DNA of 64,000 bases, from the NCBI GenBank assembly GCA_000091205.1, contig AP006491.2. One strand, 5' to 3'. This stretch comes from Cyanidioschyzon merolae (lineage: Eukaryota). A program made the position numbers and the translations under genes. The notes below the pieces were generated by a model. That model searched no databases, was not told the DNA's origin, and worked only from the letters and a program-made list of their open reading frames with translations. Below are positions 25,167 through 59,580 of the stretch, piece by piece; position 1 is the first letter of the stretch; each line of letters starts with the position of its first letter.

Positions 25167-26511
25167 AAAGTGGTACACCGCAGGGCCTGTATGCACATGT
25201 AATCAAAAACATCCGGCTACAGCGTTGTTCGGTCGTTCACAGCATGATTCGGGTCTCGTGAGAAACATCTGGTGAACGACCTTTGCGGGATAATGGGGTT
25301 TCAGATAAGGTCTGTACCAAGATACGGTACAACGAAGCGTCTTGACCTGATGCAAGCGGCTTTATCATGGTCCAAATGGACAAATGGCGTGCCCGAAGTG
25401 GAATGCGCTCAAACCATGCTTCCTCCGGTGCATCATCCTGCATGAAGGACGGCATGCGTTGGAGCGTAGCGCTCGAGCACCGCACGAGACGCGCGACTGG
25501 TGCGCAGTATCTTCCAGGACTTACGCGATCCGCAACGACTGGCGGGTAGAGCTGGTGCACGGCAGAGCGGCAGCGTTCCAATTGTACTGAAGCGCGAGAC
25601 CACCCGACGGCGTACGAAGCGTCTCTACTCCGTTTATTGGCAGCGTGTGCACCCTCGCGGGAATGCTGCTTCGAACTGTGTTCCAGCAGATTTCGAAAAT
25701 GCACTGGCAACCAATCGTTCTGAGGCAACGACATCGAGTGCTGTAACAGTGGCCAAGCTATCGACACGCGCATGCAACCACGAAAGCGCACAAACGCTCA
25801 GGCGCTTCTGTGCAGAGCGGTGTACCTGCTCACGGGTCTGGGCGCTTTACTCAACCTGTCTTTAACACTTGGCGACAACTATAAACGACAAAATTACAAA
25901 CAAATGAAGGTCCAGCGGCCTCTCGTGGTGCGCGTGCACGCCTTGCACGGTGCAGCTGTGCTCGCGAGAGCGCCTTCCGGCAAACACCAGCAGCAACAGC
26001 GCAGTGCGCTGCTCTAACCTCCGTAGCCCGCTGAAGACGCGCGATCCCAGCTATCCATCCAAGACGGCCTTCGGACTCGTATCCCGTTGACGGAATGCAT
26101 GGAGGTATCGCAGGTATGCTCGTCGTAGCTGCCGCACCCAAGCGACGAACTCGAGGGCGTAGGCCGAGGCACGCGTACTCCTAGTCAGGGCTGGAAGACC
26201 CAAAAAAACAGAAATGTACAGATTACATGAGACCCCCGCCAGCGCCAGCGCCCGCGCCAGCGCCGCTCGTGACGCTGTCCCACGCTGACGCAACGTTTCC
26301 CTGCCCGAGGTACCATCGATGCGTCTCAGCGGGCATCTCGCCGCTGCGCTATGCTTATTTGGAAACGGAGAAGCAACCGCCAAACCACTCCAGAAACTCA
26401 CCCTGCCTGCTGGGGATTCTTTCAGAGAACAACCCCAGCGCGTACCCGTCGGGCGTCACGCTTGGTTCTTCAAGGCGTTCGCCAGGTGCGTGCCTTCCTG
26501 CATCACCGCTG

Positions 26512-26878
26512 CTGCTGATCTCTACTACAGATCTCTACTCATTGCTGATCTCTACTACAGATCTCTACTCATTGCTGATTGCTGATCTCTACTCATTGCT
26601 GATCTCTACTACAGATCTCTACTCGTTGCTGATTGCTGATCTCTACTCGTTGGTGATTGCTGATCTCTACTCGTTGCTGATTGCTGATCTCTACTCGTTG
26701 GTGATTGCTGATCTCTACTCATTGCTGATTGCTGATCTCTACTCATTGCTGATTGCTGATCTCTACTCATTGCTGATTGCTGATCTCTACTCGTTGCTGA
26801 TTGCTGATCTCTACTCGTTGCTGATTGCTGATCTCTACTCATTGCTGATTGCTGATCTCTACTCATTGCTGATTGCTG
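26512..26878. repeat. 24-bp tandem array, about 15 units (ctgattgctgatctctactc[a/g]ttg), preceded by a few 30-bp variant units
   Basis: Near-identical contiguous units are visible directly. The period is a multiple of 3, so the ORF stays open on both strands ((LIADLYSL)n on plus, (SRDQQSAM)n on minus). A 12-bp direct repeat, ctgcatcaccgc, flanks it at 26498..26509 and 26882..26893. Confidence 0.9.
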
Positions 26879-27441
26879 CCGCTGCATCACCGCCGGGGAT
26901 CGGCGCCGATTGGCCGACGCGATCGAGAGGCCGTCGAGTCGGCGCCGTCGACCGCTCCTCCCATACCTCCTGCAACGCCTCGTGGTACGCCTCCATTGAG
27001 GTTCAACACACAGGACGCCATTACGCTTGACAGCTTGGGTAACGAAACAGTGTTCACTGCTCTAGCGGTTCGGTGTGGTGTCCACTGGTAGTAGGTAGAG
27101 CCAAGTGGGGAAACGCACACGTCTACGTTTCTGGAGGCCTTGCTCAAACGTGCGTTTTCTCGGAACGCAGAGGCGCTCTGGGGTACGACCAGCGCAAGCC
27201 TTTCCTGAGGTTGCCCGCGGTGCCGGGAGCGCGCTCGACACACGCGTGCGTCTGAACGCACGACAACGGGTAAGTTTCGCGGAACCTCGGTGTGTGGTGA
27301 CGGGAGCTGCTGCGGCACTGGAGCGCCCGGTCACGAGGCTTCGAGGACCTGCGTCTGCGTCAGGAACCTAACTGGTGTTGGTGTTCCGCGCGGAGGGCGC
27401 CTGACTTTTGCGTCAGTCCGTCAGTCTGTTAGTCTGTACTC

Positions 27442-29109
27442 GTGACTTGGACGCGCCAGGCAAGTCGTGAAGAGAGGATGCGCCTCGCCAGCGAGAGTTA
27501 CGCGACGCACGCACTGCCCGAGAGCAGTCATCTACCCGAAGACGACACGACCTGGGAACGTGGGACCGAACCCGTATCGCTTCTGGTCGCAAAACTGGAG
27601 CCGCTTCTGAGAGCCGGTGACGAAGGCAACTGGCGTGACATGGTATGTGTCAGAAAGCTGGCCGCATTGAAAGAGCGCCTCCTGGAAGAGCGGCAACGAG
27701 AGCAACGCCAGCAGCAGGCCGCTACGGTGCCTGGTGGCTACGAAAACGACCCCACTGGTGCGCAACTGCAGGCGCAAACGCTTCACACCGTGAATGCAGC
27801 GCTTGATAAAATTAACCGGCGCTTTGAGTACATGCGTCAACAGGGACATAACTGGGGATACGGGTCACGCATTGCAGAACCGCTTGCCACTCCATGGAAT
27901 GACGTGTGGCATGCACCGCCGGTGGAGGCAGCGCTCGGCACCTCGGCATCGAGAAAAGTTCGGGTGCTGCGGCGCAACAACTCCGCGCTGCGACTCGCCC
28001 TGGCAGGATCCCTCTTTATTGATCGCTTAGATGTTGAGGGTCCACAGGGTCGCAATTCTCCGGCCGGTGAGGGCGTTCGCGATGCCGTCCTCTACGAGTA
28101 CATGGACGCAGCAGAGTTTCGACAACGTCAGCTTCTGGAAATAGAGCGAGCGCGGCGGAGTGAGAGTCTTGACCTCGATGATGACGCATCGACGCCACAA
28201 GAGACTGGTGATTCCGAAGACAGCGAACACGGAGCACATGAACACCACGAATCCGTCAGCACCCAAGCAGACGCCGGACACTCCGATCCATCGCATGTGG
28301 TGAATGCGTCGCCACCGGAGCGCGAAACGCAGTCGAACCTGCAACGTGTCGCTCCGAGTTCCGGTATATTTGCACAATCGCATCTGTCCCGAATATACGC
28401 TAGCACCGAAGAGGAGTACCGAGAACAGCTCATGGCTGCATCGTTGCTCACCAGCCTCGATCGCCGCCGACGTTTTCGAGAATCCAGCGCGCAGCGTGAG
28501 CCCGTGACACCCTCGCTGCGTTCGGAGTCCACCACGACGCATACAGACCGGAGTGCAGAAGACACACAGCAAGTGGTTTATGCGATGCGCTCACAGAGCC
28601 CGGCCCCAGATCCACTGAGCAAGGCGCCAGGATCCACAGACGCCTCGGCTTGTCGTACGTCAGGTGTCTCCAGTGGGTCCAGCACGAACTCTGCTCCACT
28701 GGGTTCCGTTCAAGAGCTGGGGGGTTCCGGACGCTATCGACCCGGCAGCAATGCGGCACCATCACGTTTCTGCCACGTCTGCGCACGCACCAAGGACTTA
28801 CAGACTTGTGCAAACCTGCCAACTGGCTGCCGCAAAGTCACCTGTGCCAAGTGCTTTGAGGACCACGGCTGGGTACGTTCCGATGCCTGGGTGTGCACAC
28901 ATTGCCGCGGTGTGTGTCCAGAACGCTCGCAATGTCAAATTTATCGATTATCCAATCGCAACCGCAGCGCCAAGAATCGACGTCATGGACAAGGCAGATA
29001 TGCTGGTGCGAGGACACCAGCCGCCGCCGCCGCCGCCACGACCGCGTCGACTACAACTACTTCTACTACCACCAGCGGTGTTCATCGCAAGCGCGTGCGG
29101 CACTCGTGA
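27442..29109 (+). CDS. CDCA7: CDCA7-like protein with C-terminal zf-4CXXC_R1 zinc finger
   Basis: 555 aa. The C-terminal segment CHVCARTKDLQTCANLPTGCRKVTCAKCFEDHGWVRSDAWVCTHCRGVCPERSQC matches the four-CXXC pattern of CDCA7/JPO1 (CHQCRQKT...C..C.G.FCG.CL.NRYGE...W.CP.CRGICNCS). Upstream is coiled coil, then an acidic and serine-rich low-complexity region. Confidence 0.6.
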   Translation: MTWTRQASREERMRLASESYATHALPESSHLPEDDTTWERGTEPVSLLVAKLEPLLRAGDEGNWRDMVCVRKLAALKERLLEERQREQRQQQAATVPGGYENDPTGAQLQAQTLHTVNAALDKINRRFEYMRQQGHNWGYGSRIAEPLATPWNDVWHAPPVEAALGTSASRKVRVLRRNNSALRLALAGSLFIDRLDVEGPQGRNSPAGEGVRDAVLYEYMDAAEFRQRQLLEIERARRSESLDLDDDASTPQETGDSEDSEHGAHEHHESVSTQADAGHSDPSHVVNASPPERETQSNLQRVAPSSGIFAQSHLSRIYASTEEEYREQLMAASLLTSLDRRRRFRESSAQREPVTPSLRSESTTTHTDRSAEDTQQVVYAMRSQSPAPDPLSKAPGSTDASACRTSGVSSGSSTNSAPLGSVQELGGSGRYRPGSNAAPSRFCHVCARTKDLQTCANLPTGCRKVTCAKCFEDHGWVRSDAWVCTHCRGVCPERSQCQIYRLSNRNRSAKNRRHGQGRYAGARTPAAAAAATTASTTTTSTTTSGVHRKRVRHS

Positions 29110-29459: not shown

Positions 29460-30983
29460 CTACTTGTTTGCTCCTGTTGCTGGTGCTTCCGCTTGCTGTG
29501 CGGCATCCACAAAGCCCGCTAGAACGTCAGCGATGCGTCGGGTTTCATCGCGAGCGCGTTCGTCATCACCAAGGAGCCGCTTGATCAGGGCCTGGAAGCC
29601 ATCATGCGCCGGGTCCGAGCCGCAAGTCGCCGCTATTCGCGCTGCGTACTCGAGCAGGCCAACCATCATCACCGCCTCGGCGGCTGCGCAGAGCGCCGGA
29701 TCCACGTCGTCAGCCGATACCTTTCCAATCCCCAGCTGCCGATACGCTCTCAACAGCGGACTCTTCTGAAGCGCGTCTAAAAGCAAACGTCTAGAGCTAG
29801 AGCACTCACAGCTCGTGTTTGCATCTTGAATCCGCAACGGGGTTACCGCCAGATGACGAGAGAGATGCAGCGTCCAGATTTGAATGAGCGTTTCCATGAA
29901 CTCGGCGAGCTGCTTCTCGTCCATTGCGATTGCATATCCCCGCATCAGGCCTCGAATCGTGATTTGTACCTCAGTTAGCGCTCTAGCGGTTTCCTGCTGC
30001 GTCGACAGACGTTTCATGTGGAGAAGACGCGGACGCCACGCACACGGGCGTACCGTGCTCGCGGAGGCATCCTCCGACGGCACCGGTGTGCGGTTTGAGG
30101 TGCCCGACGCCTCAACGACCGGCCGACGACGCACCATAGCGAGACCCCGGGGCATCCCTGTTGCCGGATCGAGGACGCTCATCGCTCGATACAGGTCCGG
30201 GAGTGCCACCCAGTGTGGTGGGTACTTGAAGCGCGCCACATCAAGGATCAGGGCACGATCCGACACCTCGTCGTATGCAGCAATCGGGGAAAAATGCCCG
30301 GTGCCTGTTTGCTGCAGGGCCTCGCGGGCGTAGCAAAGCACCAGGAACCCGCTACCGTTTCGGGGGTCCCGATCACTGCACATTCGTTGGAGAGACTCAC
30401 GGAAACGCTCGAGCGATAAATGCTGGGACGGTGCCACACCAGGTGCTGGTGGCTGTGCTGTCTCCACGAGGGCACCATTGCATTGACCCAGGCAGCGGAA
30501 CTCGTCCAGGGTGATGCCCTCGCGAGCGACGATATGCAGAGGCAGACAGCAATCGAGGAGCTCCTCAGAAAACCAGCGCCAGGGGCCTTTCCACGGACGT
30601 CCGGGATCGACCTGGAGCGCGTTGAGCACCATTGCGAGCGAGCCTAAACCGCAAAAGGCCGGCTCGCTTTGCGTAGTAAACTGGGATACCAAGGGCAGGA
30701 AAGGCTCTGCTAGGCCCGAAAAAAGGCTGCGCTCGAACAAAGCTCGACCCTCAGCAGAGTCCAGCGCGATGCACGTTGCCGGAAGCGGGCGACGATAGAA
30801 CGACACCGCCGGCGGAGGAGTTGCGCTCGGTATCCTCGTCGTCGTCGTCGTCGTCGTCACCGTTATCGTCTGTGGTGTCTGTGTACGCAGCACCGTGGCG
30901 TCATTCTCTGGTAGCGCAGGAGCAGGTTGTGTGCGACTCGACGGCGTCTGAACTGGGCACTGCTCAAGCGCTGGCGCCATGGT
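29460..30983 (-). CDS. PCS: Phytochelatin synthase (glutathione gamma-glutamylcysteinyltransferase)
   Basis: The block [86 protein letters not shown] matches the papain-like PCS catalytic domain including the catalytic Cys (plant PCS: [20 protein letters not shown].LF...[45 protein letters not shown]). The six-frame ORF extends to 31181; the start is assigned to MAPALEQ at 30983, which is inference. A (GTC)n microsatellite encodes a poly-Thr tract near the N-terminus. Confidence 0.85.
   Translation of the reverse strand, partial: [507 protein letters not shown]
30835..30858. repeat. (GTC)n microsatellite inside the PCS 5' coding region (poly-Thr on the minus strand)
   Basis: tcgtcgtcgtcgtcgtcgtcgtc is visible directly. 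Confidence 0.85.
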
Positions 30984-31389
30984 TGCTCGAGTCACCTGCG
31001 GTTGCGAACGAGTCCTCAATCTTTTAAAGCAGCCGCCACGCCCTTCGTTTTGCAGCACGCACTCAAGCGGACGCTGGAGCTTCTCGAGACGACACGCGAA
31101 CCCGTGGTAACCGCAACGTACCAACGGACGCCAAATGATCATCAGCGGCGACCAGCCTGTGAGGTGAGCACCGTCTTTCACTTGTCGTCTGCAACCCAGA
31201 CTCGGTGCTCACTAGTCAAACAAAACCCCCCTGAAGACAGTTCAACCCTTGTTTACAACACAACGACCTACAGCGCGTATCTGGCTAGGCTAGTTCGAAT
31301 CCCGTTCCCAAGTCCCGCCTGCAGACTCATGGCTTGGCCTGGGTGGTGGAGGGCGGCAGCGGCGGCGGCTGCCGCCTGGTCACGCGCGT

Positions 31390-32046
31390 CTACGAACGCA
31401 TGATGGCAAGCGCGCGTTTCGCTTCCTCCACATGGGAGAGAAAGTCCATCTGACTGTTGTGCACCTTCACAACCTTACCCTCCTTGTCAATGACGTAGGT
31501 TACTCTCCCTGGTAAAACACCTAACGTATTCGGAACGCCGTAGAGCTTGCGCACCTTGCCGCCAACATCTGCAAGCAGACGAAAGCGATATCCCTGTGCC
31601 TCGGAGAAGCGCTTCTGCTCCTCTACAGTGTTCGAGCTGATGCCCAGCACCACAGCGTCTACGGACTCGAAAGCGGCGAGATCATCTCGAAAGGCGCAAA
31701 GCTCTTTCGTGCAACCGGGACTCGACGCTGCCGGATAGAAGGCCAGTACCACGGGTTTACCACGCAGCTTGGACAGGGTCACTGCTTCTCCATTCTGATC
31801 AAGCAGCGTAAAGTCCGGCGCCATAGAACCCTCCGTGACTCCAGCACTCCGCAGCGTGAAGAGCGAACGTCGAGCAGCGGCACCGTGGGAGCGTTTAACA
31901 GTCAGCAGGGCTGCTTGTCTTCCGTACCGAACTCGAGCGGGTACAGCCTGCTCGAATCCCTGGCTCGGGTAAGCTTGTGCTTGCCTTGCACCAGCCCTGA
32001 TGCCAGCGCGCTGAAGAGATTGCGTAAGCGTTAAGGAAACAAACAT
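31390..32046 (-). CDS. BCP/PrxQ-type peroxiredoxin with about 60-aa N-terminal extension (putative organellar presequence)
   Basis: DFTLLDQNGEAVTLSKLRGKPVVLAFYPAASSPGCTKELCAFRD...GRVTYVIDKEGKV is the atypical 2-Cys PrxQ/BCP active-site motif (PGCT..xC). The N-terminal Ser/Arg/Ala-rich segment lacks acidic residues, which is typical of transit peptides. Confidence 0.85.
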   Translation of the reverse strand: MFVSLTLTQSLQRAGIRAGARQAQAYPSQGFEQAVPARVRYGRQAALLTVKRSHGAAARRSLFTLRSAGVTEGSMAPDFTLLDQNGEAVTLSKLRGKPVVLAFYPAASSPGCTKELCAFRDDLAAFESVDAVVLGISSNTVEEQKRFSEAQGYRFRLLADVGGKVRKLYGVPNTLGVLPGRVTYVIDKEGKVVKVHNSQMDFLSHVEEAKRALAIMRS

Positions 32047-32630
32047 GAAACGATATGCGCTGATAGCTTGCTCTGTGCTTGGAAAACGTCCTCTCCGCGG
32101 TACCAGCTGGACGACTGGCAGGCGCCGCGCCGATGCGATCGTGTGAATGTGAAAGCGCGCACGCCTGGCGATGATGGCAACGTGGCGACGCCTCTGCGGT
32201 ATATGCCGCAGCAGCTCGGCATGCGCTGCAGGTACGACTATCAGGCGACGCTGATGTTTCTATAGGTGCAATCGCTGTCGCGGGCTTCGAGAGCGTCTCC
32301 ATACGGACGCACGGGTAAAACGGTGGTGCATAGGGCGGGGACGTCACAAAAAAAAGTAAGAAAAGAAAAATGCGCATAATCGGAGAATGCTGGCCGAAGT
32401 CAACGTTTTGTCAATGGAAAAAAATAGGCGGGGCGTCCAGCGCCGTTCATCGTGTGTCCTGTGGATGCAGGTGCGCTGGGGGCGCGTCCGTAACGCACGC
32501 CCACGCTACGTTTAAGCGAATCTTAGAACTCCAGTTTCGTTATACCCTGGTAGTCGTCGTACTACCTGTGGCTATCGATCGAGTGCTCTGCAACGGACTC
32601 GGGTGAACCTTTTGTGGAACAGTTTTATCC
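32047..32630. promoter_or_regulatory. Divergent intergenic region shared by the two PrxQ paralogs (putative bidirectional promoter)
   Basis: 584-bp spacer between the head-to-head genes. It contains an A-rich tract, aaaaaaaagtaagaaaagaaaaatg. Regulatory function is inferred only. Confidence 0.35.
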
Positions 32631-33110
32631 ATGAGTTCGGAACAAGCTCCAACCAAGGGGCAGCTTGCTCCTGTCATCAGGGCTACAGACCATAACGGAA
32701 CGTTGGTGGACACCGAGTCTGTGCGAGGTCAACGGCCCGTCGTGGTGTTCTTCTTTCCGCGAGCGTTCACCGTGGGCTGTACCCGAGAAGCGTGCGCGTT
32801 CCGTGACTCTTATTCGGCTTTCGAAACTCTGAACGCAATGGTGGTAGGCGTATCAGCTGATTCCCCACAGGTTCTGCGGGAGTTCGCGCAGCAACATAAA
32901 CTTCCGTTCCACCTTGTTTCGGATACCGACGGGAGCCTGCGCAAACTCTTCCAAGTGCCCAGATCCCTGTTCGGTCTTCTTTCTGGGCGGGTTACCTATG
33001 TCATCGGACGGAGCGGCCGCATTCTGGATATATTTAATAGTCAGCTCAGTTGGACCGAACACGTAAACGTGGCGAAGAAGGCTATCGCTGCAGAGGAGGC
33101 CGCTACATGA
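32631..33110 (+). CDS. BCP/PrxQ-type peroxiredoxin, second paralog without N-terminal extension
   Basis: VVVFFFPRAFTVGCTREACAFRDSYSAFETLNAMVVGVSADSPQVLREFAQQHKLPFHLVSDTDGSLRKLFQVP...GRVTYVIGRSGRILDIFNSQ. It shares the GCT(K/R)ExC, GRVTYVI and NSQ blocks with the upstream paralog. Confidence 0.85.
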   Translation: MSSEQAPTKGQLAPVIRATDHNGTLVDTESVRGQRPVVVFFFPRAFTVGCTREACAFRDSYSAFETLNAMVVGVSADSPQVLREFAQQHKLPFHLVSDTDGSLRKLFQVPRSLFGLLSGRVTYVIGRSGRILDIFNSQLSWTEHVNVAKKAIAAEEAAT

Positions 33111-34049: not shown

Positions 34050-36419
34050 TCAACGATTCTCGGCAGGTCCTTGACGCCGCATGTGGCGCTCGTAGTAGAA
34101 TTGCGCAAAGGTAGGCAGCACTCGAGAGGAGACCACGGATGAAAGCGAACCTCCAGGTTCCGGATGCGTACACGACGCACCCGATGCCTGGCGGAAGACC
34201 AGCGTTAGCTCATTTAGGAGCGTTTCGTAGCGGTAGCGAACACGAATAGATGGAACATTGGACTTGTGGATATCGTTCCCCTGGTCATTGGTGAGAAACC
34301 AGCGCGGTCCGAGCCAGTGCGCCTTCACACAGGGCTCGAAACCGCTCTGTAGCGCAGAGTTTCGCGCCAGTTCACAGAGATCCGAACTGCTCAGTTTCCA
34401 TATCTGAGCGGCTACCGAGTACTCTTCCATGAGCGGCTCGCGAGAGAAATGGAACATAAGTGGATCATCGGTGCTGAGGCTCACATTCAGCCCGCGTGCA
34501 ATAAACACTGGTACCGGTGACTTGGTGTAATCGACGAATAGCAGGTTATTGCCCAGCGGAGAGACAGCGAGACCCACTTGGCACAGGTAGTAGAGGTACT
34601 GCAGCACGGGTGCTTTTTTCAAGTTAATCCCGTGATTAATACCGTGCGCGAGGAGAAACGTCACTGCCAGGTGATCGATTTCGCCGGCTTCACCAGCATG
34701 TGGGCGGAATCGAAAGGTATGCAGGCCTCGATGCTCGCGAAACCTGTTCAAAACCCATAAATTAGCGTAGATGTAGTAGGTGAAGTATGCATAGGGCATC
34801 GGTGCTGAGGTACGCCACGCTAGCGGCGGTGGCAAGGTCAACAAGTCGATGCGTGGCTGCGGTACACTCTCGTCGTCAACGGTGTCGAAGCCTACAATCT
34901 GTTGCAGAACTGTGTGCAGCTCCGGATGCGTTGATGGATCTTGCGTGACCTCAAATAGCGGGAAGAAAATATTGTTCAACATTTCCTGAAAGGATTCCAG
35001 CAACCCTGCTTCGTGGTAGGCGCCGAACAAACGCGGAATCTGGATCAACCATCGGGCGTGATCCGAGTAGATTCGATGCTTGGTGAACCAGCGAGCAAGA
35101 CGATCCCACTCGCATCGTTTTTTGCCGTATATCGAGATTCGGGGCTCGATATGGGAGTACTTGCTCTCTACAAGATCATCGAGGACCTCGCGGGTGATTT
35201 CCGCCAGAAATCGGCCTTCGATAAAGTTGTCCGTTTTCAGAAACACTTCCCGAAGACGAGATTCTCCCAGCGGGGAATACTTGTTATTGAAGCGGTCAAA
35301 GCGCTGCACGGTACGCTTATCCGCGTGCACGTCGAGCGTGTCCACCGACAGCTCATACGCCGTGATGCCGAGGGAGTCGAACACCCCGGCCAGCGTCAGA
35401 ACGCGGCCATCGCGCTCAATCACTGGGGTGTTCGGCTCGGTCTTGAGTTTCTTCTTAATAAATCGGAGCAGGTGCTTCTGGTTCATACAGGAGCTGTGAT
35501 GAATATGCGTGTCAACCTTGCGGACATTATAAAAGTCTCGATGCGGCACTGTCATCTGCTCTAGCCGCTCTGCTTCATCGTTGAGTAGCAGATGCATTTG
35601 AAAGCGCAGAGAGAGTAGTTGCAGACGCCTGTAGCAGAACGAGCGGGAGTCGGGATCGTTCATGATCCCGATCAGCGTGTTCAGATCGTGCACGAAAAGC
35701 GCATAGGAGCCAGGAACAACGAACTTGCACGGTTCGCGGCTTGTCTCGGTTGCCGGTCTTGTGACCTCCATGATGCCATCACGAACTTCGAACGCGTAAT
35801 CGCCCTTCGCCAGGGCTGGCCCTCGAAAAGGATCATACGGTGGCGGGACGTGGATACTCAGGTCACAGTCGCGGTACGGAGGTGCCGGGTTCGCATACTC
35901 TGGGACTTCAGGTAGGTAGAGGTATTTCTCGCGGAGGGCGATAGCGTTTCGGAGCAGTGCACATACCCTGCGCTCGTCGGCGTTTAACTCGACCTCGTTC
36001 GTGATGAGTACTCGCTGAAAACCTCGCTCTGTAACCGCAGATCGGAGTGAGCGGAAGGCTTGCCCAAGTTCTCGCCGGAGTTCAAGCGTCTGTAACGCAG
36101 TCAGGGTCGCCTCGTCTACCGAGGCCGTGTTGTGCACGAGTTGGGTTCCGTCGCTACGGTCACCTGAAGTGGAGGCTTCTTGCGCTCGCAGAGGATCGGT
36201 AACAGGAACCAGCAGCGCGTCCCGTGCCCTCTCGTCGGAGCGCTCACCAGCTGCCACCGACGATTGAACTAGACGACGCCAGTGAGGAGACAGGGCGCGC
36301 TGTGCAAGAACCGGTTCGGCATCCTCCTGTTCAAGGTCATGAATCCAAACGAGCTTGCCACTATCTCTACCAAATGGTTCCATGAGCGTGCACGTGCTCC
36401 AGTTCCCCGACACCGTCAC
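34050..36419 (-). CDS. AMPD: AMP deaminase
   Basis: 789 aa. It has the metal-binding motif VDTHIHHSSCMNQKHLLRFIK, SLSTDDPLMFHFSREPLMEEYSVAAQIWKLSSSDLCELARNS, and a long central block colinear with AMPD/Amd1. Start is either Met1 (36419) or Met13 (36383); Met1 overlaps the tail of the Fanzor ORF. Confidence 0.9.
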   Translation of the reverse strand: MTVSGNWSTCTLMEPFGRDSGKLVWIHDLEQEDAEPVLAQRALSPHWRRLVQSSVAAGERSDERARDALLVPVTDPLRAQEASTSGDRSDGTQLVHNTASVDEATLTALQTLELRRELGQAFRSLRSAVTERGFQRVLITNEVELNADERRVCALLRNAIALREKYLYLPEVPEYANPAPPYRDCDLSIHVPPPYDPFRGPALAKGDYAFEVRDGIMEVTRPATETSREPCKFVVPGSYALFVHDLNTLIGIMNDPDSRSFCYRRLQLLSLRFQMHLLLNDEAERLEQMTVPHRDFYNVRKVDTHIHHSSCMNQKHLLRFIKKKLKTEPNTPVIERDGRVLTLAGVFDSLGITAYELSVDTLDVHADKRTVQRFDRFNNKYSPLGESRLREVFLKTDNFIEGRFLAEITREVLDDLVESKYSHIEPRISIYGKKRCEWDRLARWFTKHRIYSDHARWLIQIPRLFGAYHEAGLLESFQEMLNNIFFPLFEVTQDPSTHPELHTVLQQIVGFDTVDDESVPQPRIDLLTLPPPLAWRTSAPMPYAYFTYYIYANLWVLNRFREHRGLHTFRFRPHAGEAGEIDHLAVTFLLAHGINHGINLKKAPVLQYLYYLCQVGLAVSPLGNNLLFVDYTKSPVPVFIARGLNVSLSTDDPLMFHFSREPLMEEYSVAAQIWKLSSSDLCELARNSALQSGFEPCVKAHWLGPRWFLTNDQGNDIHKSNVPSIRVRYRYETLLNELTLVFRQASGASCTHPEPGGSLSSVVSSRVLPTFAQFYYERHMRRQGPAENR

Positions 36420-37263
36420 ACAACAAACGCCGGTCTAAAGTCGAATGTCGCCTGCACTGTACAGTACCGGCGAGAAATTCGCCCCGGACAAGACGTCTCC
36501 AAATTATTCGCGGACGCCTCCCCGTGGTTCTCGACCGGCCACCTACTACTGCTTCCAACTTTTGCTCATATAATTCCACTTTGAGAGGTTGCCCCACAAA
36601 ATTCTCTCTTGTCCACTCTGGAGGTCTAGTCTGCAGCACTACACATGTCCTTATATTGAGAGCTGCATTAAAGTCTCGGTTCACAAACTCCATGCGTTTC
36701 TTACCGTTGGTTGTTATGCTAACCAATGCAAGGAGTCCTCGAACTTGTGCCCTCCTTTCCATCTGCTCTTCCGTCAGCTGTCCGTACTTTTTTATATCCT
36801 CAGGGCTCCTCTGGCACTTTTCCATCTCGACCCTTTGAAGTGTGCACCCCAGTTCATGATGTGTATACGATGTCCGGAACTCATCTATGGGTATCGTAAC
36901 GAAACGTTGTGCGCACTCCTTGTACGTTCGTGTCGTTGGAGCTGGCGTAGTCCTTTTTTGGGTCTTCCAGCGCCCTGCTCTGTATGCTTCTACCAGCCTC
37001 TGACTTTCATCCTCCTTCAAAGCGTTCAACTGATTGAAAACGTTCGCGAACGCGCGCCGCTTCCCACAATACAGATTCATACGCAGACTAGCCCACCGGG
37101 GCTTTGTATACTCCTCCCACAGTGCATCCCAATGCGCAACGCGAGCTTCCATGAATTTCCGGAAAGCTTCAAAGTCCGCTCCGCGGACCGTCACCTCGCT
37201 CAAAGCTTCCAGGTGCTCCTTCACCCCTGCATTCCATCTCTCAACTTTCTTCCTTGCATTCAC
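36367..37263 (-). CDS. Fanzor/TnpB-like nuclease, C-terminal half (RuvC-II region, zinc finger, RuvC-III), the most intact copy (copy c)
   Basis: 298-aa ORF. The segment ...AQRFVTIPIDEFRTSYTHHELGCTLQRVEMEKCQ... follows the TnpB pattern G..V..V.E.YTS..C..CG (RuvC-II Glu followed by the zinc finger). NRDFNAALNIRTC is the RuvC-III D-x-N-A-A-x-N-I signature. By comparison with copy a, which stops after ...VAGRST, the native stop is probably near 36520, and the last 50 or so codons are fortuitous read-through. Confidence 0.7.
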   Translation of the reverse strand: MNARKKVERWNAGVKEHLEALSEVTVRGADFEAFRKFMEARVAHWDALWEEYTKPRWASLRMNLYCGKRRAFANVFNQLNALKEDESQRLVEAYRAGRWKTQKRTTPAPTTRTYKECAQRFVTIPIDEFRTSYTHHELGCTLQRVEMEKCQRSPEDIKKYGQLTEEQMERRAQVRGLLALVSITTNGKKRMEFVNRDFNAALNIRTCVVLQTRPPEWTRENFVGQPLKVELYEQKLEAVVGGRSRTTGRRPRIIWRRLVRGEFLAGTVQCRRHSTLDRRLLCDGVGELEHVHAHGTIW

Positions 37264-40000
37264 AATACCGGATTCTCGATAGCATCTCGATCTCGAGAAA
37301 TCTCAAAAGACGCATATCTTTCTGGCGCACGTTACCGTCAATGCCATCTTCCGCACGCTTCGGTTCAGCGACGGGTATGATATTCGTGTGTCCGGGGTCC
37401 GCGCCAATGACAACGTCGTTATCCTCTACCTCCTGCGCGGCAGGACCCGGCTCCTTCTCATCTTCTTGTTTCGCCGCACCAACGATAACGTCGTTATCCT
37501 CTACCTCCTGCGTCGCAGGATCCGCCACCTTTTTTTCTTCATGCTTCGCCGAAGCGCAACTGAGGACGGAACTGGACGATCCACCTTCAAGCGCCGATAG
37601 TGTACGCACATGGCTACTCCATCGGTTTCGATCATCCCAGTGAGTACCTTTTGGTTGCTCGTCTAGACACGTATGAAATCGAAGGTATTCGTCCAATGCA
37701 ATTCCCGGTTTTCGCCCGTTAACTCCTTATCGCTGACATCGAACTCCGGACTGATCTTCTCCATGATGCTGTAAAGGACTCCGGAGTCGATTGAGACAGA
37801 GTGCGGCTTGATGTTGCACAACGGAACGACGTTGAAGCGCTTACCCATTAGGAAAGCCTTCCGTTCCTCCAACCCCGTCATTTCGTTTCCTGACTCAGCT
37901 TCATCTCCGCATTGCGTTCGAGTTCTCGGTTCAGGAGCATGAAATAGCGCAGGATGAGGGATACCATTTTTTTCATCTTTTTTCGTATATGATACGTTTT
38001 CTGCTGGATTTGACAAGCCCCATGACTGCACGGTGCTCTTGAATAGCCGCACGGATCAAAGTAGCTTCATACTTTCTCCCGCGTGATATCTTCTTGACGA
38101 CGAATTCGATCTCCTGTCCATTCTGGCGATCGCTCGTGATGCCATTGATGATGGTCCATATCCCCTGGCGGGAGAGGCCCAGGTACGTTGCAAAAACGGC
38201 GCATATCATGAAGCGTTTGAGTTTCATGGTCATACGATTCTTCAGGTTCGTGAGGTACTTGATCGTCCCGTATGAGTTAATATCTGCGACACTCTTGTAT
38301 AGAGTACCGTCGAAGCGGTATTCGGGGTGATTTTCGTGGACGGCATGCACTCTCTCATTTCTCCTCGACGCTTCCCCTGTGCCAAGCATCAGGTGGCGAA
38401 TAAAAGTCTTGTTGAAAAATTCTCTCGGAACCTCGAATGTTTTGATGTCCGTCATATCGCGATACATCTCCCTCGCCATATGCATCAGTTCAGAAGAAGT
38501 CTTTATAATTCTCAAGGAGTACGACTCGACACGGTTTCTGATGGCCTCTCGTAACTTTTTTTGTATGGATCCTTGGTATACTTTAGAAGACAGGCTTTCG
38601 CTACCATCTCATCTTACTGTCGCCTTCGTGCAGCTCCTTCATCTTCGCCTGCTCCTCTGGACTCGGCAATGTTTTTCGTTTTTCTCTGGCAGCTGGCGAC
38701 ACCGACCCTTCGAAATCCTCCACTTCCATATCAATGACTTGCTTATATTTTTTGGAAAAGAACGCACTATGAACGCTTCTGCTGGAAAGCGCGAAAACCC
38801 ACTGAGCACACTAAACTGAGGTTTGAAAAACGATCGGATTCAAAGACTATACTTTGCTATGACTTGAACGCGAATACATCTTGGACGCTATCGTAACACG
38901 CTGATGCCGCGATGCCATGCCGTTTTCGTGCATGCGACAAGTCCCCGGCAACAGTGCACGCTCCGAATGCCGCATCGCGTGTTTCCAGTCAAGTCTACGA
39001 ATAAGAAGGATGGCGCTTCCATTCGACGGCTACATGCGCTTCTTGTCTCATTTTTTGTCTGACAAACCGTTTACATTTACCATGGATCCTAGATTGCGGG
39101 ATGGGTATTGGCTTTCGGGAAAGTGTCCATCATGCTGTACCCTACGTCAAATGTCTATGACCTGTTCTCGGATATACTGGTTATTTCGCACATTCTGTTG
39201 TGCGCCGACTACCTGCTCCGAGCGCCGCCCCCTGCAGCGCGCACACTGCTGGTACGGATGCAGTATGGAAGCAGCACGGCTTTGGGATGCCGCTGAGCGC
39301 GTCAGCTCGAAGCGCTGTTCACCTACAACGGGGTCGGAGTGCATAATCATTCTGGGAGCCTGCAAACCGCGCAGGTAGAGCTTCTGCGTGCGGCAATGCG
39401 ATGCGATATACTAGGAGTCCAGTGCAACCGGGGCGACGCCCAGACGCAGCCTACCTGCCCCTAGTCCCAGAGTGAATTGCGTTGCGGACGAGCTGCACAG
39501 ATGTCACTACAGCACCCGCCACTGCAGAGGAATACGGAGCAAAAACTCCGGTGGACTCGTCCAGCTCGCGGGATCTTCCGCCTAGAAAATAATCTTTTGA
39601 AAAAACGGAAAGTTTTCCCCCTTTCGAACGCTGACGATGCAGTTCGAACGAAATTGTTATCAAGTTGCTATTTCATGGTTGGTTTCTATCCCTTTTTCCA
39701 TAGCGCGGTCGATACCCGAACTTGGGATCGCCTCGGCATGCGAACGGTGGCATCGGGAACCGCTGGCCTGTGTAGACATTTTGTCAAATAAAAAACACAA
39801 ACGCTCCCTGGATCCTTCGAAATCCAATTCCCGATACAAATACTTGTTCGACTGCGGTGCATTGCAGTACTTGCTTGCAAGGAGCATTCGTTACTTTCCG
39901 AGACGCTTCCAGTAACCGCGCGACCGGTGATTCTGGTAAGGTGCATCGGGTGCTGACCCTGAATACCCGGACCCCCGCGCGAATGGCCAGGTGCTGGCAG
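36420..40000 (-). mobile_element. Fanzor-bearing transposon (copy c), lower-GC island; boundaries approximate
   Basis: GC content drops visibly between about 36500 and 40500. Consecutive minus-strand ORFs in shifted frames (37241..37696, 37663..38052, 37973..38515) lie upstream of the RuvC ORF, indicating introns or decay of the N-terminal half. It carries modules repeated elsewhere in the window: 39330..39800 matches 47860..48290, and 39050..39140 matches 60330..60440 (reverse complement). It also has a tandem peptide repeat, QEVEDNDV(I/V)(V/I)GA. Confidence 0.5.
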
Positions 40001-43651: not shown

Positions 43652-44599
43652 GAACATTGTCAGGTCCGGTGTAAACGTCCGTTTTCTTCAAAAGGTACGC
43701 CCGGAGGGAGCGTTTTACGAACCCTGTGGCTCTGGTCGTCATGACGCCCATGCTCTGCTCAGCATCGTTGACGCATTCGCAGTTTGGGGAGCACGCTGTA
43801 CGGTGCTGGAACGGGTACCCGTGTTACCGCAGCTTGAGTGCTTGCTCGGTACGTCGAGCGCTCGCGCAACACCACAGCAACACACTCTGCATCTTCGATG
43901 AAAAATGTTGCAGCTTGTTTCCCTCATAGGACTTTCTGGAGGAATCTCTGGTGATGTTCACGCATCTTCTGTGACGAACAAGCAGGGAATTCGCAGCACC
44001 TGCATCCGAGCGTCTGCTGCATGTATGCTGGTGCTCGCACAGCGACGGCAACAGTGTCGGTGCGTCTCGGGCCGATGCCCCCAGTGGTACGGCAGAGTCG
44101 TTCTGTCTTCGTGCTGCTTCTGCACCGGCGCTAGCGGTACTATTGTGGATGCTTCTGGAAGACTCGGCGGGTCATGGAACATGGTTAGTGACCAGATTCT
44201 CCGTGGGGAAATATTGGGCAGTTCAATTTGGAGCTCGGATGTATATCGACAGATGCTTTTCCAATCGCTGATATCAAGCAAGCCGTCGGGGATCCCTAGT
44301 CAGTACACACGTTCGATCAAAGGAAACGTGAACGGCATCACTGCTGTGCATCCAAGTCGCGTGCGCCCGCGATCAGCAGCGCACATCTGCCTTCCTTTCA
44401 GTACTATACGCAAGGCATTGTTTCATGCCAGAGGATGCGCTCAGATTCATCATGGAGAGGATCTACATGTACAGTTGCAGTCAACTACGCAGCGCTCGGG
44501 TTCTACTGACGACTGACCAGCCTGCTGGCTCGCATGCAGTCGACATGTCGTGGCCCGTACCGCACCGTGCGGTCATTGGTGCGTCCCCGGGGCGATGCC

Positions 44600-45375
44600 C
44601 GCTGGCGCCATCGCATCCTGCCCCGGCTCCCGGAACCCATAAACATCCTCTTTGAATGCGTGGAGCGTTCAAGGCGTCGTCTGTTTGTCACCAGTTTTTC
44701 AGGGATGAAGCGCAGCCGCCCATTGCTGCAGGAGCCGAGCACAGTCAACATCCTCTTTGAATGCGTGGAGCGTTCAAGGCGTCGTCTGTTTGTCACCAGT
44801 TTTTCAGGGATGAAGCGCCGCCGCCCATTGCTGCAGGAGCCGAGCACAGTCAACATCCTCTTTGAATGCGTGGAGCGTTCAAGGCGTCGTCTGTTTGTCA
44901 CCAGTTTTTCAGGGATGAAGCGCCGCCGCCCATTGCTGCAGGAGCCGAGCACAGTCAACATCCTCTTTGAATGCGTGGAGCGTTCAAGGCGTCGTCTGTT
45001 TGTCACCAGTTTTTCAGGGATGAAGCGCCGCCGCCCATTGCTGCAGGAGCCGAGCACACTCAACATCCTCTTTGAATGCGTGGAGCGTTCAAGGCGTCGT
45101 CTGTTTGTCACCAGTTTTTCAGGGATGAAGCGCCGCCGCCCATTGCTGCAGGAGCCGAGCACAGTCAACATCCTCTTTGAATGCGTGGAGCGTTCAAGGC
45201 GTCGTCTGTTTGTCGCCAGTTTTTCAGGGATGAAGCGCAGCCGTCCATTGCTGCAGGAGCCGAGCACACTCAACATCCTCTTTGAATGCGTGGAGCGTTC
45301 AAGGCGTTCGTCTGTTTGTCACCAGTTTTTCAGGGATGAAGCGCAGCCGCCCATTGCTGCAGGAGCCGATCTCAG
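44600..45375. repeat. 105-bp tandem array, about 7.4 near-identical units
   Basis: The unit is catcctctttgaatgcgtggagcgttcaaggcgtcgtctgtttgtcaccagtttttcagggatgaagcgc[c/a]gccgcccattgctgcaggagccgagcaca[g/c]tcaa. Copies start at 44644, 44749, 44854, 44959, 45064, 45169 and 45274. The period is 35 codons, so ORFs stay open on both strands (plus strand: ILFECVERSRRRLFVTSFSGMKRRRPLLQEPSTVN repeated). Confidence 0.9.
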
Positions 45376-59444: not shown

Positions 59445-59580
59445 CTAGGTAGCATACGCGCACACCGATCATGATCAGAGACCGACCACGTACACCGCTG
59501 TGGAACTGCGCTCTGGTTACCCACTTGACACGATTGGGATCCCATTGACTGCTGCGAGCCCGAGGTTGCAACCCAGAGGA

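What the first reader, a model, noticed from the sequence alone, without database searches (positions are those of the whole stretch)
29460..33110. Metal/redox stress cluster: phytochelatin synthase next to a divergent pair of BCP/PrxQ peroxiredoxin paralogs
Phytochelatin synthase (heavy-metal detoxification via glutathione oligomers) lies 400 bp from two thiol peroxidases of the atypical 2-Cys BCP/PrxQ class. The two peroxidases are arranged head to head and share GCT(K/R)ExC, GRVTYVI and NSQ blocks, so they derive from an old local duplication. Only the upstream paralog (31390..32046) has an N-terminal extension of about 60 aa that is Ser/Arg/Ala-rich and free of acidic residues, which is presequence-like. 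This suggests one organellar and one cytosolic isoform. All three enzymes depend on the glutathione/thioredoxin thiol pool, so co-localisation may reflect co-regulation.
Basis: partly seen in the sequence, partly recalled or inferred. Interest (0 to 1): 0.5.

Follow-up and report, generated by a model that had tools for sequence, protein, structure and literature searches.

The report
Known red-alga antioxidant and metal genes
This stretch of the red alga Cyanidioschyzon merolae holds three already annotated genes, a characterised phytochelatin synthase, a chloroplast-type peroxiredoxin Q and a second peroxiredoxin without a targeting peptide, and I found no positive evidence that they work as a co-regulated stress cluster.

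Summary
The three ORFs are real. They are a phytochelatin synthase (PCS; PF05023, 1e-81) and two BCP/PrxQ peroxiredoxins that are 42% identical and lie head to head 584 bp apart. Only the upstream copy has an N-terminal extension.

The window is C. merolae 10D. Both peroxiredoxins are identical to annotated proteins, "peroxiredoxin Q" (XP_005536288.1) and "similar to peroxiredoxin Q". Reviews cite published characterisation of CmPCS (Osaki 2008, 2009).

The 70-aa extension (11 basic, 1 acidic residue) looks like a red-algal plastid transit peptide. Phe sits at residues 2-4 in four Cyanidiaceae lineages, in Galdieria and in Cyanophora. The extension is 34% conserved against 91% for the mature domain. 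So "one organellar, one extension-less isoform" is supported, and the organelle is most likely the plastid.

The evidence offered for a local duplication fails. GRVTYVI, NSQ and GCTxxxC occur across the whole family. The paralogs were never sisters in 600 NJ bootstraps, although those trees lack power. Adjacency, which is tandem in Cyanidium, is the only remaining argument.

The order PCS-PrxQ-PrxQ is kept in three Cyanidiaceae genera, but so are unrelated neighbours. PrxQ-A is inverted between genera, and the intergenic DNA is not conserved. Galdieria PrxQ and a fourth lineage's PCS are unlinked. Co-regulation has no support. This is ordinary and already known.

The parts
29460..31142 (-). 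Phytochelatin synthase gene (CmPCS), 560 aa from the ATG at codon 14 of the listed ORF. About 113 aa of N-terminal extension precede the catalytic domain.
   Evidence: ORF. PF05023 at 1e-81. Public 560-aa gene call P0268 differs at one residue. Orthologue start codons align with Met14. CmPCS is cited as cloned and characterised by Osaki 2008/2009 in PMC8234872 and PMC9265389.
30144..30800 (-). PCS catalytic (papain-like) domain, residues 128-346 of the 573-codon ORF. The Cys-His-Asp triad candidates are C177, H296 and D314 in ORF numbering.
   Evidence: Pfam envelope. C177, H296 and D314 are invariant in the 8-sequence alignment that includes a bacterial (Nannocystis) and a Naegleria PCS.
31390..32046 (-). 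PrxQ-A, the annotated 'peroxiredoxin Q' (XP_005536288.1/BAM80002.1), 218 aa.
   Evidence: Exact identity to P0267. AhpC-TSA at 2.7e-37. Closest solved structures are BCPs.
31837..32046 (-). Putative plastid transit peptide of PrxQ-A (codons 1-70, MFVSLTLTQ...RSAGV). Phe is at position 2; there are 11 basic residues and 1 acidic residue.
   Evidence: Composition, and 34% identity against 91% for the mature part versus Cyanidiococcus. N-terminal Phe in orthologues. F-based plastid targeting in rhodophytes and glaucophytes is described in PMC7038456. Met75 is Ile in Cyanidiococcus, so it is not a conserved alternative start.
31390..31836 (-). Mature PrxQ-A peroxidase domain. It has P-x3-S-x2-C with peroxidatic Cys112, resolving Cys117 (GCTKELC) and Arg181 (GRVTYVI).
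   Evidence: Invariant columns C42, C47 and R111 of alignment A3, in mature numbering. Pfam.
32047..32630 (.). 584-bp divergent intergenic region between PrxQ-A and PrxQ-B. It is presumed to hold both promoters. No conserved element was found.
   Evidence: Sequence. Alignment to the equivalent Cyanidiococcus region shows only scattered matches. No Rfam or tRNA hit in the window.
32631..33110 (+). PrxQ-B, annotated 'similar to peroxiredoxin Q', 159 aa, no N-terminal extension. It has PRAFTVGC with peroxidatic Cys50 and resolving Cys55.
   Evidence: Exact identity to P0121. AhpC-TSA at 1.1e-28. The ORF starts at the first start codon after a stop. Orthologues are 160-162 aa.
27442..29109 (+). 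Conserved gene of unknown function, convergent with PCS. It is a syntenic neighbour and not part of any redox function.
   Evidence: No Pfam hit. tblastn matches to the PCS-adjacent genes of Cyanidiococcus (63% identity) and Cyanidium.
34050..36419 (-). AMP deaminase, the syntenic neighbour on the other side of PrxQ-B.
   Evidence: PF19326 at 4e-248. It holds the same position in Cyanidiococcus and Cyanidium.

Best explanation
This is a piece of the nuclear genome of Cyanidioschyzon merolae 10D. It carries three independently transcribed, already annotated genes.

**1. CmPCS.** This is a papain-like gamma-glutamylcysteine transpeptidase that makes phytochelatins from glutathione. Published characterisation of it is cited in reviews. 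It has a lineage-specific N-terminal extension of about 113 aa.

**2. PrxQ-A.** This is an atypical 2-Cys BCP/PrxQ peroxiredoxin made as a 218-aa precursor.
- Its 70-aa basic presequence has Phe at position 2. I infer that this presequence directs import into the plastid through the Phe-dependent Toc/Tic route of red algae.
- I infer that the presequence is removed near ...LRSAGV/TEGS.
- I infer that the mature enzyme reduces H2O2 and organic hydroperoxides. Cys112 would act as the peroxidatic Cys and form an intramolecular disulfide with Cys117, which plastid thioredoxin would then re-reduce.

**3. PrxQ-B.** This has the same catalytic motifs (Cys50, Cys55) but no presequence. By default I infer that it is cytosolic, possibly nucleo-cytosolic.

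**Origin and linkage.** The two peroxiredoxins most likely descend from an ancient tandem duplication that predates the split of Cyanidium from Cyanidioschyzon and Cyanidiococcus. One copy lost or never had the transit peptide and evolved faster. Later, PrxQ-A alone was inverted in one lineage. Their position next to PCS is inherited synteny in a compact, slowly rearranging genome, not a regulated metal/redox cluster.

**Shown here:** gene identities, catalytic motifs, conservation of the presequence and its Phe, and the synteny pattern.

**Inferred:** localisation, the cleavage site, the reductant, the duplication, and the absence of co-regulation.
For: **Identity**
- PrxQ-A and PrxQ-B are 100% identical to the C. 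merolae 10D proteins XP_005536288.1 'peroxiredoxin Q' and 'similar to peroxiredoxin Q'.
- PCS hits PF05023 at 1e-81, and C177, H296 and D314 are invariant.
- CmPCS characterisation is cited.

**Catalysis**
- CP-x4-CR and the conserved Arg are invariant across both clades.
- The best PDB relatives are BCPs.

**Transit peptide**
- The extension is kept at 60-70 aa in Cyanidiococcus and Cyanidium while its sequence drifts (34% identity against 91% for the mature part).
- N-termini read MFVSL, MFASS, MAFVSP and MLFFASS. The last is an open upstream frame in L005.
- Galdieria partita PrxQ starts MVFVRS and Cyanophora PrxQ starts MAFVAG.
- An F-based plastid motif at the very N-terminus of rhodophyte and glaucophyte precursors is described in PMC7038456.
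- Small internal control: of the 10 neighbour-gene N-termini printed, Phe at positions 2-4 occurs only in a thioredoxin (MFVIIS) and a 2Fe-2S ferredoxin-domain protein (MAFVVQ).
- Met75 is Ile in Cyanidiococcus.
- All four B orthologues lack an extension.

**Duplication**
- The paralogs are adjacent in three genera and tandem on one strand in Cyanidium.
- B evolves faster: Cm-Cyanidium identity is 64% for B and 74% for A.

**No evidence for a functional cluster**
- Unrelated neighbours are equally syntenic.
- PrxQ-A orientation differs between genera.
- The intergenic region is not conserved.
- Galdieria PrxQ has no PCS or BCP within 10 kb.
- PCS in locus L004 has no PrxQ neighbour.
- The thioredoxin gene that sits nearby in relatives is absent from the whole window.
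Against: - No targeting predictor or localisation data were available. An Arg-rich presequence with net charge +10 could also serve mitochondrial or dual import.
- The paralogs are never sisters in NJ bootstraps (0/300 in each of two taxon samplings). Each is more similar to some bacterial BCPs than to the other: A is 55-59% identical to them, B is 47-55%, and A to B is 40-42%. That fits separate origins as well as an old duplication with rate acceleration.
- The PCS-A-B linkage does persist across the deepest split I could sample within Cyanidiaceae. Weak selection for linkage therefore cannot be excluded.
- No expression data were examined.
Confidence: 0.75

Rival explanations
1. The three genes form a selected, co-regulated metal/oxidative-stress cluster. 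Physical linkage would be maintained because the genes are induced together from shared or neighbouring promoters.
For: The order PCS, PrxQ-A, PrxQ-B is kept in Cyanidioschyzon, Cyanidiococcus and Cyanidium. In two of these genera a thioredoxin gene, which encodes the likely PrxQ reductant, lies two genes further on. The divergent A/B pair is only 584 bp apart.
Against: - Neighbours of unrelated function (AMP deaminase, isocitrate/isopropylmalate dehydrogenase, ABC-F, an unknown gene) are conserved in the same block.
- The divergent promoter pair is A/B in C. merolae but PCS/A in Cyanidium.
- There is no conserved intergenic block.
- The thioredoxin is absent from this 64-kb window.
- Linkage is absent in Galdieria and in L004.
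- PCS uses glutathione as substrate, whereas PrxQ uses thioredoxin (general knowledge of the families).
Confidence: 0.1
2. The two peroxiredoxins are not local duplicates. They descend from different prokaryotic BCP lineages, for example one by endosymbiotic and one by horizontal transfer, and came to lie side by side secondarily.
For: - A and B are only 40-42% identical, yet A reaches 55-59% and B 47-55% identity to different bacterial BCPs.
- A+B monophyly appears in 0/300 bootstraps in both samplings.
- Most of B's bacterial relatives lack the CP+5 Cys (33/116), whereas A's have it (110/114).
- Rossoni et al. 2019 list a Cyanidioschyzon-lineage peroxiredoxin among their HGT candidates. I could not verify whether it is one of these genes.
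Against: - Chance adjacency of two members of a very small gene family among several thousand genes is improbable (my inference). The tandem orientation in Cyanidium is the classic signature of duplication.
- The trees have no resolving power. Even A plus Galdieria PrxQ is recovered in only 1/300 replicates.
- Picking the best hits for each paralog from billions of sequences biases each towards its own hits.
- B is a fast-evolving long branch.
- B keeps the CP-x4-CR arrangement of A.
Confidence: 0.3
3. The N-terminal extension of PrxQ-A is a mitochondrial or dual-targeting presequence rather than a plastid transit peptide.
For: It has 11 basic residues against 1 acidic residue, and it is Ala/Arg-rich, like mitochondrial presequences.
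Against: - Phe at position 2-4 is conserved in every Cyanidiophyceae orthologue and in Cyanophora PrxQ. This matches the F-based plastid motif, which the cited paper argues distinguishes plastid from mitochondrial precursors in these lineages.
- By general knowledge, which I did not check here, plant PrxQ is a plastid protein.
Confidence: 0.08
4. The extension is not translated. The real start would be Met75 (MAPDF...), and the upstream open frame would be an accident.
For: Met75 lies just at the domain border. GC by codon position in the extension (0.69/0.59/0.49) does not look like that of the mature part (0.64/0.41/0.62).
Against: - The frame stays open with an upstream Met-Phe start in four lineages, although the sequence has diverged.
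- The residue equivalent to Met75 is Ile in Cyanidiococcus.
- Starting at Met75 would remove the first residues of the Pfam domain, which begins at residue 72-73.
Confidence: 0.03

Closest known systems
Plastid peroxiredoxin Q of plants and algae (PrxQ, the BCP subfamily of peroxiredoxins)
   Same: PrxQ-A has an AhpC-TSA fold, a peroxidatic Cys with a resolving Cys five residues downstream, and a conserved Arg. It is nuclear-encoded with an N-terminal presequence of 55-70 aa. Galdieria and Cyanophora PrxQ are among the best hits of a joint profile, at 49-52% identity.
   Different: The presequence is the red-algal and glaucophyte Phe-type rather than the green-lineage type. The active-site motif has Ser instead of Thr (PAASSPGC). 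Orthology to plant PrxQ could not be resolved by the trees built here.
Bacterial and archaeal bacterioferritin comigratory proteins (BCP), e.g. Sulfolobus solfataricus Bcp1 (PDB 3DRN) and E. coli Bcp
   Same: These are the best structural relatives of both paralogs (E = 3e-29 and 6e-26). They share the GR(V/I)T(Y/F)VI and NSQ blocks. Domain length is about 150-160 aa, as in PrxQ-B.
   Different: Both algal proteins score below the NCBIfam equivalog cut-off for E. coli-type Bcp (92 and 84 bits against a cut-off of 140). They are eukaryotic nuclear genes, and A carries a transit peptide.
Eukaryotic phytochelatin synthases (Arabidopsis AtPCS1 type) and the published CmPCS
   Same: Full PF05023 catalytic domain with an invariant Cys-His-Asp. 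This is the same gene as the CmPCS cited as characterised by Osaki et al. 2008 and 2009.
   Different: There is an extra N-terminal module of about 113 aa in front of the catalytic domain. PMC9265389 also notes it, and it is basic over its first 40 residues. The C-terminal region gives no hit to the plant Phytochelatin_C domain in Pfam.
Tandemly duplicated gene pairs with subfunctionalised localisation (one organellar copy, one cytosolic copy)
   Same: Two adjacent family members, tandem in Cyanidium. One has a presequence and one does not, and the extension-less copy evolves faster.
   Different: Sister relationship is not recoverable from the sequences. In C. merolae the pair is head to head because PrxQ-A alone is inverted.

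Membership tests
BCP/PrxQ peroxiredoxin subfamily | Thioredoxin-fold AhpC/TSA domain | tested here: met
   PF00578 at 2.7e-37 (A) and 1.1e-28 (B), both above the gathering score.
BCP/PrxQ peroxiredoxin subfamily | Active-site P-x3-(T/S)-x2-C with peroxidatic Cys, plus the conserved Arg | tested here: met
   A has PAASSPGC (Cys112) and B has PRAFTVGC (Cys50). The Cys and the Arg of GRVTY are invariant in alignment A3.
BCP/PrxQ peroxiredoxin subfamily | Atypical 2-Cys arrangement: resolving Cys five residues after the peroxidatic Cys | tested here: met
   GCTKELC in A and GCTREAC in B. Both Cys are invariant in all eight Cyanidiaceae sequences.
BCP/PrxQ peroxiredoxin subfamily | Thioredoxin-dependent peroxidase activity | not testable with these tools
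   This needs an enzyme assay.
E. coli-type Bcp equivalog (NCBIfam NF006960) | Score above the curated equivalog cut-off (140 bits) | tested here: not met
   92 bits (A) and 84 bits (B). Both belong to the broader subfamily but not to this narrow equivalog.
Plastid-targeted PrxQ of Archaeplastida | N-terminal transit peptide of the lineage-appropriate type (Phe near the N-terminus in red algae) | tested here: met
   Cm starts MFVSL. Orthologues start MFASS, MAFVSP, MLFFASS, MVFVRS (Galdieria) and MAFVAG (Cyanophora). The motif is described in PMC7038456. Sequence evidence only.
Plastid-targeted PrxQ of Archaeplastida | Experimentally plastid-localised | not testable with these tools
   No localisation data were found for the C. 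merolae protein.
Plastid-targeted PrxQ of Archaeplastida | Orthology (monophyly) with other algal and plant PrxQ | tested here: inconclusive
   The NJ trees have no power: A plus Galdieria is recovered in 1/300 replicates.
Phytochelatin synthase (PF05023, papain-like) | Catalytic domain with Cys-His-Asp triad | tested here: met
   273.7 bits against a cut-off of 24.9. C177, H296 and D314 are invariant.
Phytochelatin synthase (PF05023, papain-like) | Metal-activated synthesis of phytochelatins from glutathione | not tested
   Reported for CmPCS by Osaki et al. 2008 and 2009. I know these only through citations in PMC8234872 and PMC9265389, because the papers themselves are not held.
Tandem (local) gene duplicates | Adjacent members of one family | tested here: met
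   A and B are adjacent in all three Cyanidiaceae genera, and on the same strand in Cyanidium.
Tandem (local) gene duplicates | Paralogs are each other's closest relatives | tested here: not met
   0/300 bootstraps in two samplings. A-B identity is 40-42%, below each paralog's identity to bacterial BCPs. The test has low power.
Functional (co-regulated) gene cluster | Linkage conserved beyond background synteny | tested here: inconclusive
   The genes are linked in three genera, but unrelated neighbours are equally conserved. Linkage is broken in Galdieria and in L004. No genome-wide background was computed.
Functional (co-regulated) gene cluster | Conserved orientation, shared promoter or cis element | tested here: not met
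   PrxQ-A is inverted between Cyanidium and Cyanidioschyzon/Cyanidiococcus. The intergenic alignment shows no conserved block.
Functional (co-regulated) gene cluster | Co-expression under stress | not testable with these tools
   No expression data are accessible here.

The most novel reading that the evidence does not exclude
PCS, the two PrxQ genes and, ancestrally, a plastid-type thioredoxin form a Cyanidiaceae-specific, selectively maintained thiol-stress gene neighbourhood. Its members would be co-induced by metals or peroxide. Alternatively, the two adjacent PrxQ genes were acquired from different bacterial donors and assembled side by side. Either reading would be an example of functional gene clustering in a minimal eukaryotic genome.
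Probability: 0.1. Interest if true: 0.4.

Novelty: already known. Interest (0 to 1): 0.12.

Why it matters
It matters little. All three genes are annotated in the reference C. merolae genome, and published biochemical characterisation of the PCS is cited in reviews.

The modest additions from this work are:
- A sequence-based case that C. merolae peroxiredoxin Q is plastid-targeted through a Phe-type transit peptide, while its neighbour is an extension-less, presumably cytosolic paralog.
- A record that the gene order is kept in Cyanidiaceae, with a single-gene inversion.
- A caution that family-wide motifs cannot be used as evidence for a local duplication.

The region would become mildly interesting for how compact eukaryotic genomes organise stress genes only if co-expression, or separate bacterial origins of the two paralogs, were demonstrated.

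Tried and rejected
1. **Taxonomic origin of PrxQ-A's closest bacterial relatives.**
   - The neighbourhoods of two relatives at 56-57% identity were bacterial but not diagnostic.
   - The names of cluster members were uninformative.
2. **Phylogeny.** I ran NJ with Kimura distances and 300 bootstraps on two samplings. One used the best hits of each paralog. The other used the best hits of a joint A+B profile from 1.84 billion representatives. No deep node was resolved. I therefore treat the result as 'no support', not as rejection. A first attempt with Biopython distances timed out.
3. **Literature on CmPCS localisation and C. merolae PrxQ.** The Osaki papers are not held. A search for 'CmPCS' returned unrelated fields. 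No paper combines C. merolae with 'peroxiredoxin Q'.
4. **The Rossoni 2019 HGT candidate.** 'Peroxiredoxin-6 OG0005984' could not be mapped to either gene because no supplements are held.
5. **GC by codon position as a coding test for the extension.** The result was inconclusive.
6. **A twin-arginine (lumen) signal in '...AAARRSLFTL...'.** I considered and rejected this. No hydrophobic h-region follows, and the RR is not conserved in Cyanidiococcus.
7. **RNA genes.** There are no Rfam or tRNA hits in the window.
8. **The TnpB-like ORF at 36367-37263.** It gave no hit in Pfam, NCBIfam or plasmids, and only non-significant PDB matches (E of 1.5 or more). Its identification rests on motif reading plus the literature.

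Full report
**1. What is in the sequence**

- The first ORF hits the phytochelatin synthase domain PF05023 at 1e-81. The other two hit AhpC-TSA/Redoxin at 2.7e-37 and 1.1e-28.
- The two peroxiredoxins are 42% identical over 139 residues. They are transcribed divergently, with 584 bp between their start codons.
- Both carry P-x3-(S/T)-x2-C, a second Cys five residues later (GCTKELC and GCTREAC) and the Arg of GRVTYVI. These residues are invariant in all eight Cyanidiaceae sequences aligned.
- Their best solved relatives are bacterial and archaeal BCPs.

- The extension of the 218-aa protein is about 70 aa. It contains one Glu and 11 basic residues.
- The PCS most likely starts at the ATG of codon 14. 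Public gene calls give 560 aa, and the orthologues' first Met aligns with it.
- With that start, PCS begins 247 bp from the PrxQ stop codon. The distance is about 409 bp only from Met68.

**2. Where it comes from, and what is already known**

- The 159-aa protein is identical to 'similar to peroxiredoxin Q' of Cyanidioschyzon merolae 10D.
- The 218-aa protein is identical to 'peroxiredoxin Q' (BAM80002.1/XP_005536288.1).
- Both lie on a chromosome of 810,151 bp.
- The PCS differs at one residue from a 560-aa public gene call.
- Reviews cite two papers by Osaki and colleagues (2008, 2009) on cloning and characterising the C. merolae PCS. [quoted passage not shown] I could not read the primary papers.

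None of the three genes is new.

**3. The N-terminal extension**

Several results point to a real targeting sequence.

- *Length and drift.* Orthologues in Cyanidiococcus yangmingshanensis (208 and 218 aa) and Cyanidium caldarium (213 aa) keep an extension of 60-70 aa. It is only about 34% identical to that of C. merolae, while the mature domain is 91% (Cyanidiococcus) and 75% (Cyanidium) identical. That pattern is typical of targeting peptides.
- *A fourth lineage.* A short metagenomic contig had been called from an internal Met. The frame is open upstream to a Met that gives a 66-aa extension.
- *The Phe motif.* The N-termini read MFVSL, MFASS, MAFVSP and MLFFASS. Galdieria partita PrxQ starts MVFVRS and Cyanophora paradoxa PrxQ starts MAFVAG. 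Several other extended homologues also begin MAFV.
- *What the motif means.* Rhodophytes and glaucophytes use a Phe-based motif 'at the very N-terminus' to mark plastid precursors. The cited paper argues that it distinguishes plastid from mitochondrial precursors (PMC7038456).
- *Informal control.* Among the ten neighbour-gene N-termini printed, only a thioredoxin (MFVIIS) and a 2Fe-2S ferredoxin-domain protein (MAFVVQ) have Phe at positions 2-4.
- *The alternative start.* Met75 is Ile in Cyanidiococcus, so it is not a conserved start.
- *Paralog B.* It begins at the first start codon after a stop. Its orthologues are 160-162 aa with acidic residues among the first six.

I conclude that A is very probably imported into the plastid and that B stays outside organelles. 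It remains an inference from sequence, because no predictor or localisation data were available.

**4. Are the paralogs an old local duplication?**

- GRVTYVI occurs in 96/114 and 105/116 of the bacterial best hits of A and B.
- NSQ occurs in 23/114 and 37/116 of them, and also in Sulfolobus Bcp1.
- GCTxxxC occurs in 110/114 of A's hits.

Pairwise identity does not favour a sister relationship either.

| Comparison | Identity |
|---|---|
| A-clade to B-clade | 40-42% |
| A to its bacterial hits | about 55% (up to 59%) |
| B to its bacterial hits | about 47% (up to 55%) |
| B to A's bacterial hits | about 43% |

NJ bootstraps never joined A and B (0/300). This held with the best hits of each paralog and with the best hits of a joint A+B profile searched against 1.84 billion representatives.

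The trees have no power, however. Even A plus Galdieria PrxQ appears in only 1/300 replicates. B is also a fast-evolving branch: C. merolae to Cyanidium identity is 64% for B against 74% for A.

The positive evidence for duplication is positional. The two genes are adjacent in all three genera, and they are tandem on one strand in Cyanidium. Chance adjacency of two members of such a small family is unlikely.

I put an ancient tandem duplication with accelerated evolution of B at about 0.65. I put independent prokaryotic origins at about 0.3.

**5. Is this a functional metal/redox cluster?**

The gene order differs between lineages as follows.

- *Cyanidiococcus:* ABC-F, thioredoxin, isocitrate/isopropylmalate-type dehydrogenase, AMP deaminase, PrxQ-B, PrxQ-A, PCS, then an unknown gene.
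- *Cyanidium:* the same block, from two assemblies.
- *C. merolae:* the core from the unknown gene through PCS, A and B to AMP deaminase is kept.

The linkage is therefore old. But it is shared with neighbours of unrelated function, so it looks like background synteny in compact genomes. Several details argue against a selected regulatory unit.

- PrxQ-A alone is inverted. The divergent pair is A/B in Cyanidioschyzon and Cyanidiococcus, but PCS/A in Cyanidium.
- The A-B intergenic regions of C. merolae and Cyanidiococcus align no better than unrelated sequence.
- The thioredoxin and dehydrogenase genes of the relatives are absent from the whole 64-kb window.
- In Galdieria partita, no PCS or second BCP gene lies within 10 kb either side of the PrxQ gene.
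- In a high-GC relative (L004), PCS sits next to the dehydrogenase and thioredoxin genes with no PrxQ nearby.
- By general family knowledge, PCS consumes glutathione as a substrate, whereas PrxQ-type enzymes are recycled by thioredoxin. The 'common thiol pool' link is loose.

No expression data could be examined. Co-regulation is therefore unsupported rather than disproved, and I give it about 0.1.

**6. Comparison with known families, and verdict**

- A meets every sequence criterion of the BCP/PrxQ subfamily and of a red-algal plastid precursor.
- B meets the BCP criteria and lacks a presequence.
- Both fall below the narrow NCBIfam equivalog cut-off for E. coli-type Bcp.
- The PCS meets the domain and catalytic-triad criteria. 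It is the published CmPCS.

The finding is correct as an observation and partly correct as an interpretation. Biologically it is ordinary and already annotated. I score interest at 0.12 and novelty as 'already known'.

**7. Things seen in passing**

- *A decayed transposon where relatives have two genes.* In C. merolae the interval 36.4-40.8 kb has lower GC and a chain of frame-shifted minus-strand ORFs. The last ORF contains '...IPIDEFRTSYTHH...NRDFNAALNI...'. From memory, this resembles the TnpB/Fanzor RuvC motifs, but it gave no Pfam, NCBIfam or plasmid hit and only non-significant PDB matches (E of 1.5 or more). Bao and Jurka (2013) report one Fanzor1 family in C. merolae, carried by about 150 diverged copies of a roughly 3-kb element, CMe-1A. 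This is most likely a decayed copy of it.
- *PCS presequence.* All Cyanidiaceae PCS orthologues have an N-terminal module of 113-125 aa that is basic over its first 40 residues. The PCS itself may be organelle-targeted.
- *Repeats.* Tandem and dispersed repeats occur elsewhere in the window.

Noticed in passing
window 36367-38515 (-), within the low-GC interval 36.4-40.8 kb: A chain of overlapping minus-strand ORFs in different frames (37973-38515, 37663-38052, 37241-37696, 36367-37263). The last contains '...IPIDEFRTSYTHH...NRDFNAALNI...', which from memory resembles TnpB/Fanzor RuvC motifs. There was no Pfam, NCBIfam or plasmid hit, and only non-significant PDB matches. It is probably a decayed copy of the Fanzor1-bearing CMe-1A element that Bao & Jurka 2013 reported at about 150 copies in C. 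merolae.
   Followed up: partly
window 36.4-40.8 kb compared with L001 2309-4619 and L003 13075-14753: Cyanidiococcus and Cyanidium carry a thioredoxin gene and an Iso_dh-family dehydrogenase gene between AMP deaminase and ABC-F. In C. merolae these two genes are absent from the entire 64-kb window, and the transposon-like sequence occupies the interval. The Cyanidiococcus thioredoxin starts MFVIIS, a plastid-type Phe motif.
   Followed up: partly
window 30804-31142 (-), PCS codons 1-113 counted from Met14: All Cyanidiaceae PCS orthologues have an N-terminal module of 113-125 aa ahead of the catalytic domain. It is basic and nearly free of acidic residues over the first 40 residues (Cm MIIWRPLV..., Ccya MFVRAVVPLS... 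and MLLRVAPSF..., Cyanidium MSVVHSNTPSF...). The PCS itself may be organelle-targeted. PMC9265389 mentions the extra module.
   Followed up: partly
L002 4239-7889 and L003 6840-10489, compared with window 29460-33110: A single-gene inversion. In Cyanidium caldarium, PrxQ-A and PrxQ-B are tandem on one strand and PCS is divergent from PrxQ-A. In Cyanidioschyzon and Cyanidiococcus only PrxQ-A is flipped.
   Followed up: yes
L004 (Logan SRR31152685 contig, 11.8 kb): This is an unidentified relative with about 70% GC. Its PCS is 47% identical to CmPCS and sits between an Iso_dh/thioredoxin pair and an unknown gene, with no PrxQ or AMP deaminase beside it. Part of the Cyanidiaceae block is recognisable but rearranged. 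The frame upstream of the called PCS start is open for about 95 codons.
   Followed up: partly
window 26566-26926: A tandem repeat with a 24-nt period and about 15 copies. It produces the repetitive 'ADLYSLLI' peptide in the mechanical ORF 26227-27030.
   Followed up: no
window 44537-45466: A tandem repeat with a 105-nt period and about 9 copies, up to 100% identical, lying inside overlapping ORFs on both strands (44534-45484 + and 44503-45276 -).
   Followed up: no
window 39277-39623 and 47803-48147: A dispersed direct repeat of about 350 nt, 71-75% identical, 8.5 kb apart. It may be part of the same transposable-element family as the Fanzor-like ORFs.
   Followed up: no
window 59577-59836: Two adjacent copies of a repeat of about 130 nt, 97% identical.
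   Followed up: no
PMC6629376 (Rossoni et al. 2019): [quoted passage not shown] Whether this orthogroup is PrxQ-A, PrxQ-B or another gene could not be checked, because no supplements are held.
   Followed up: partly
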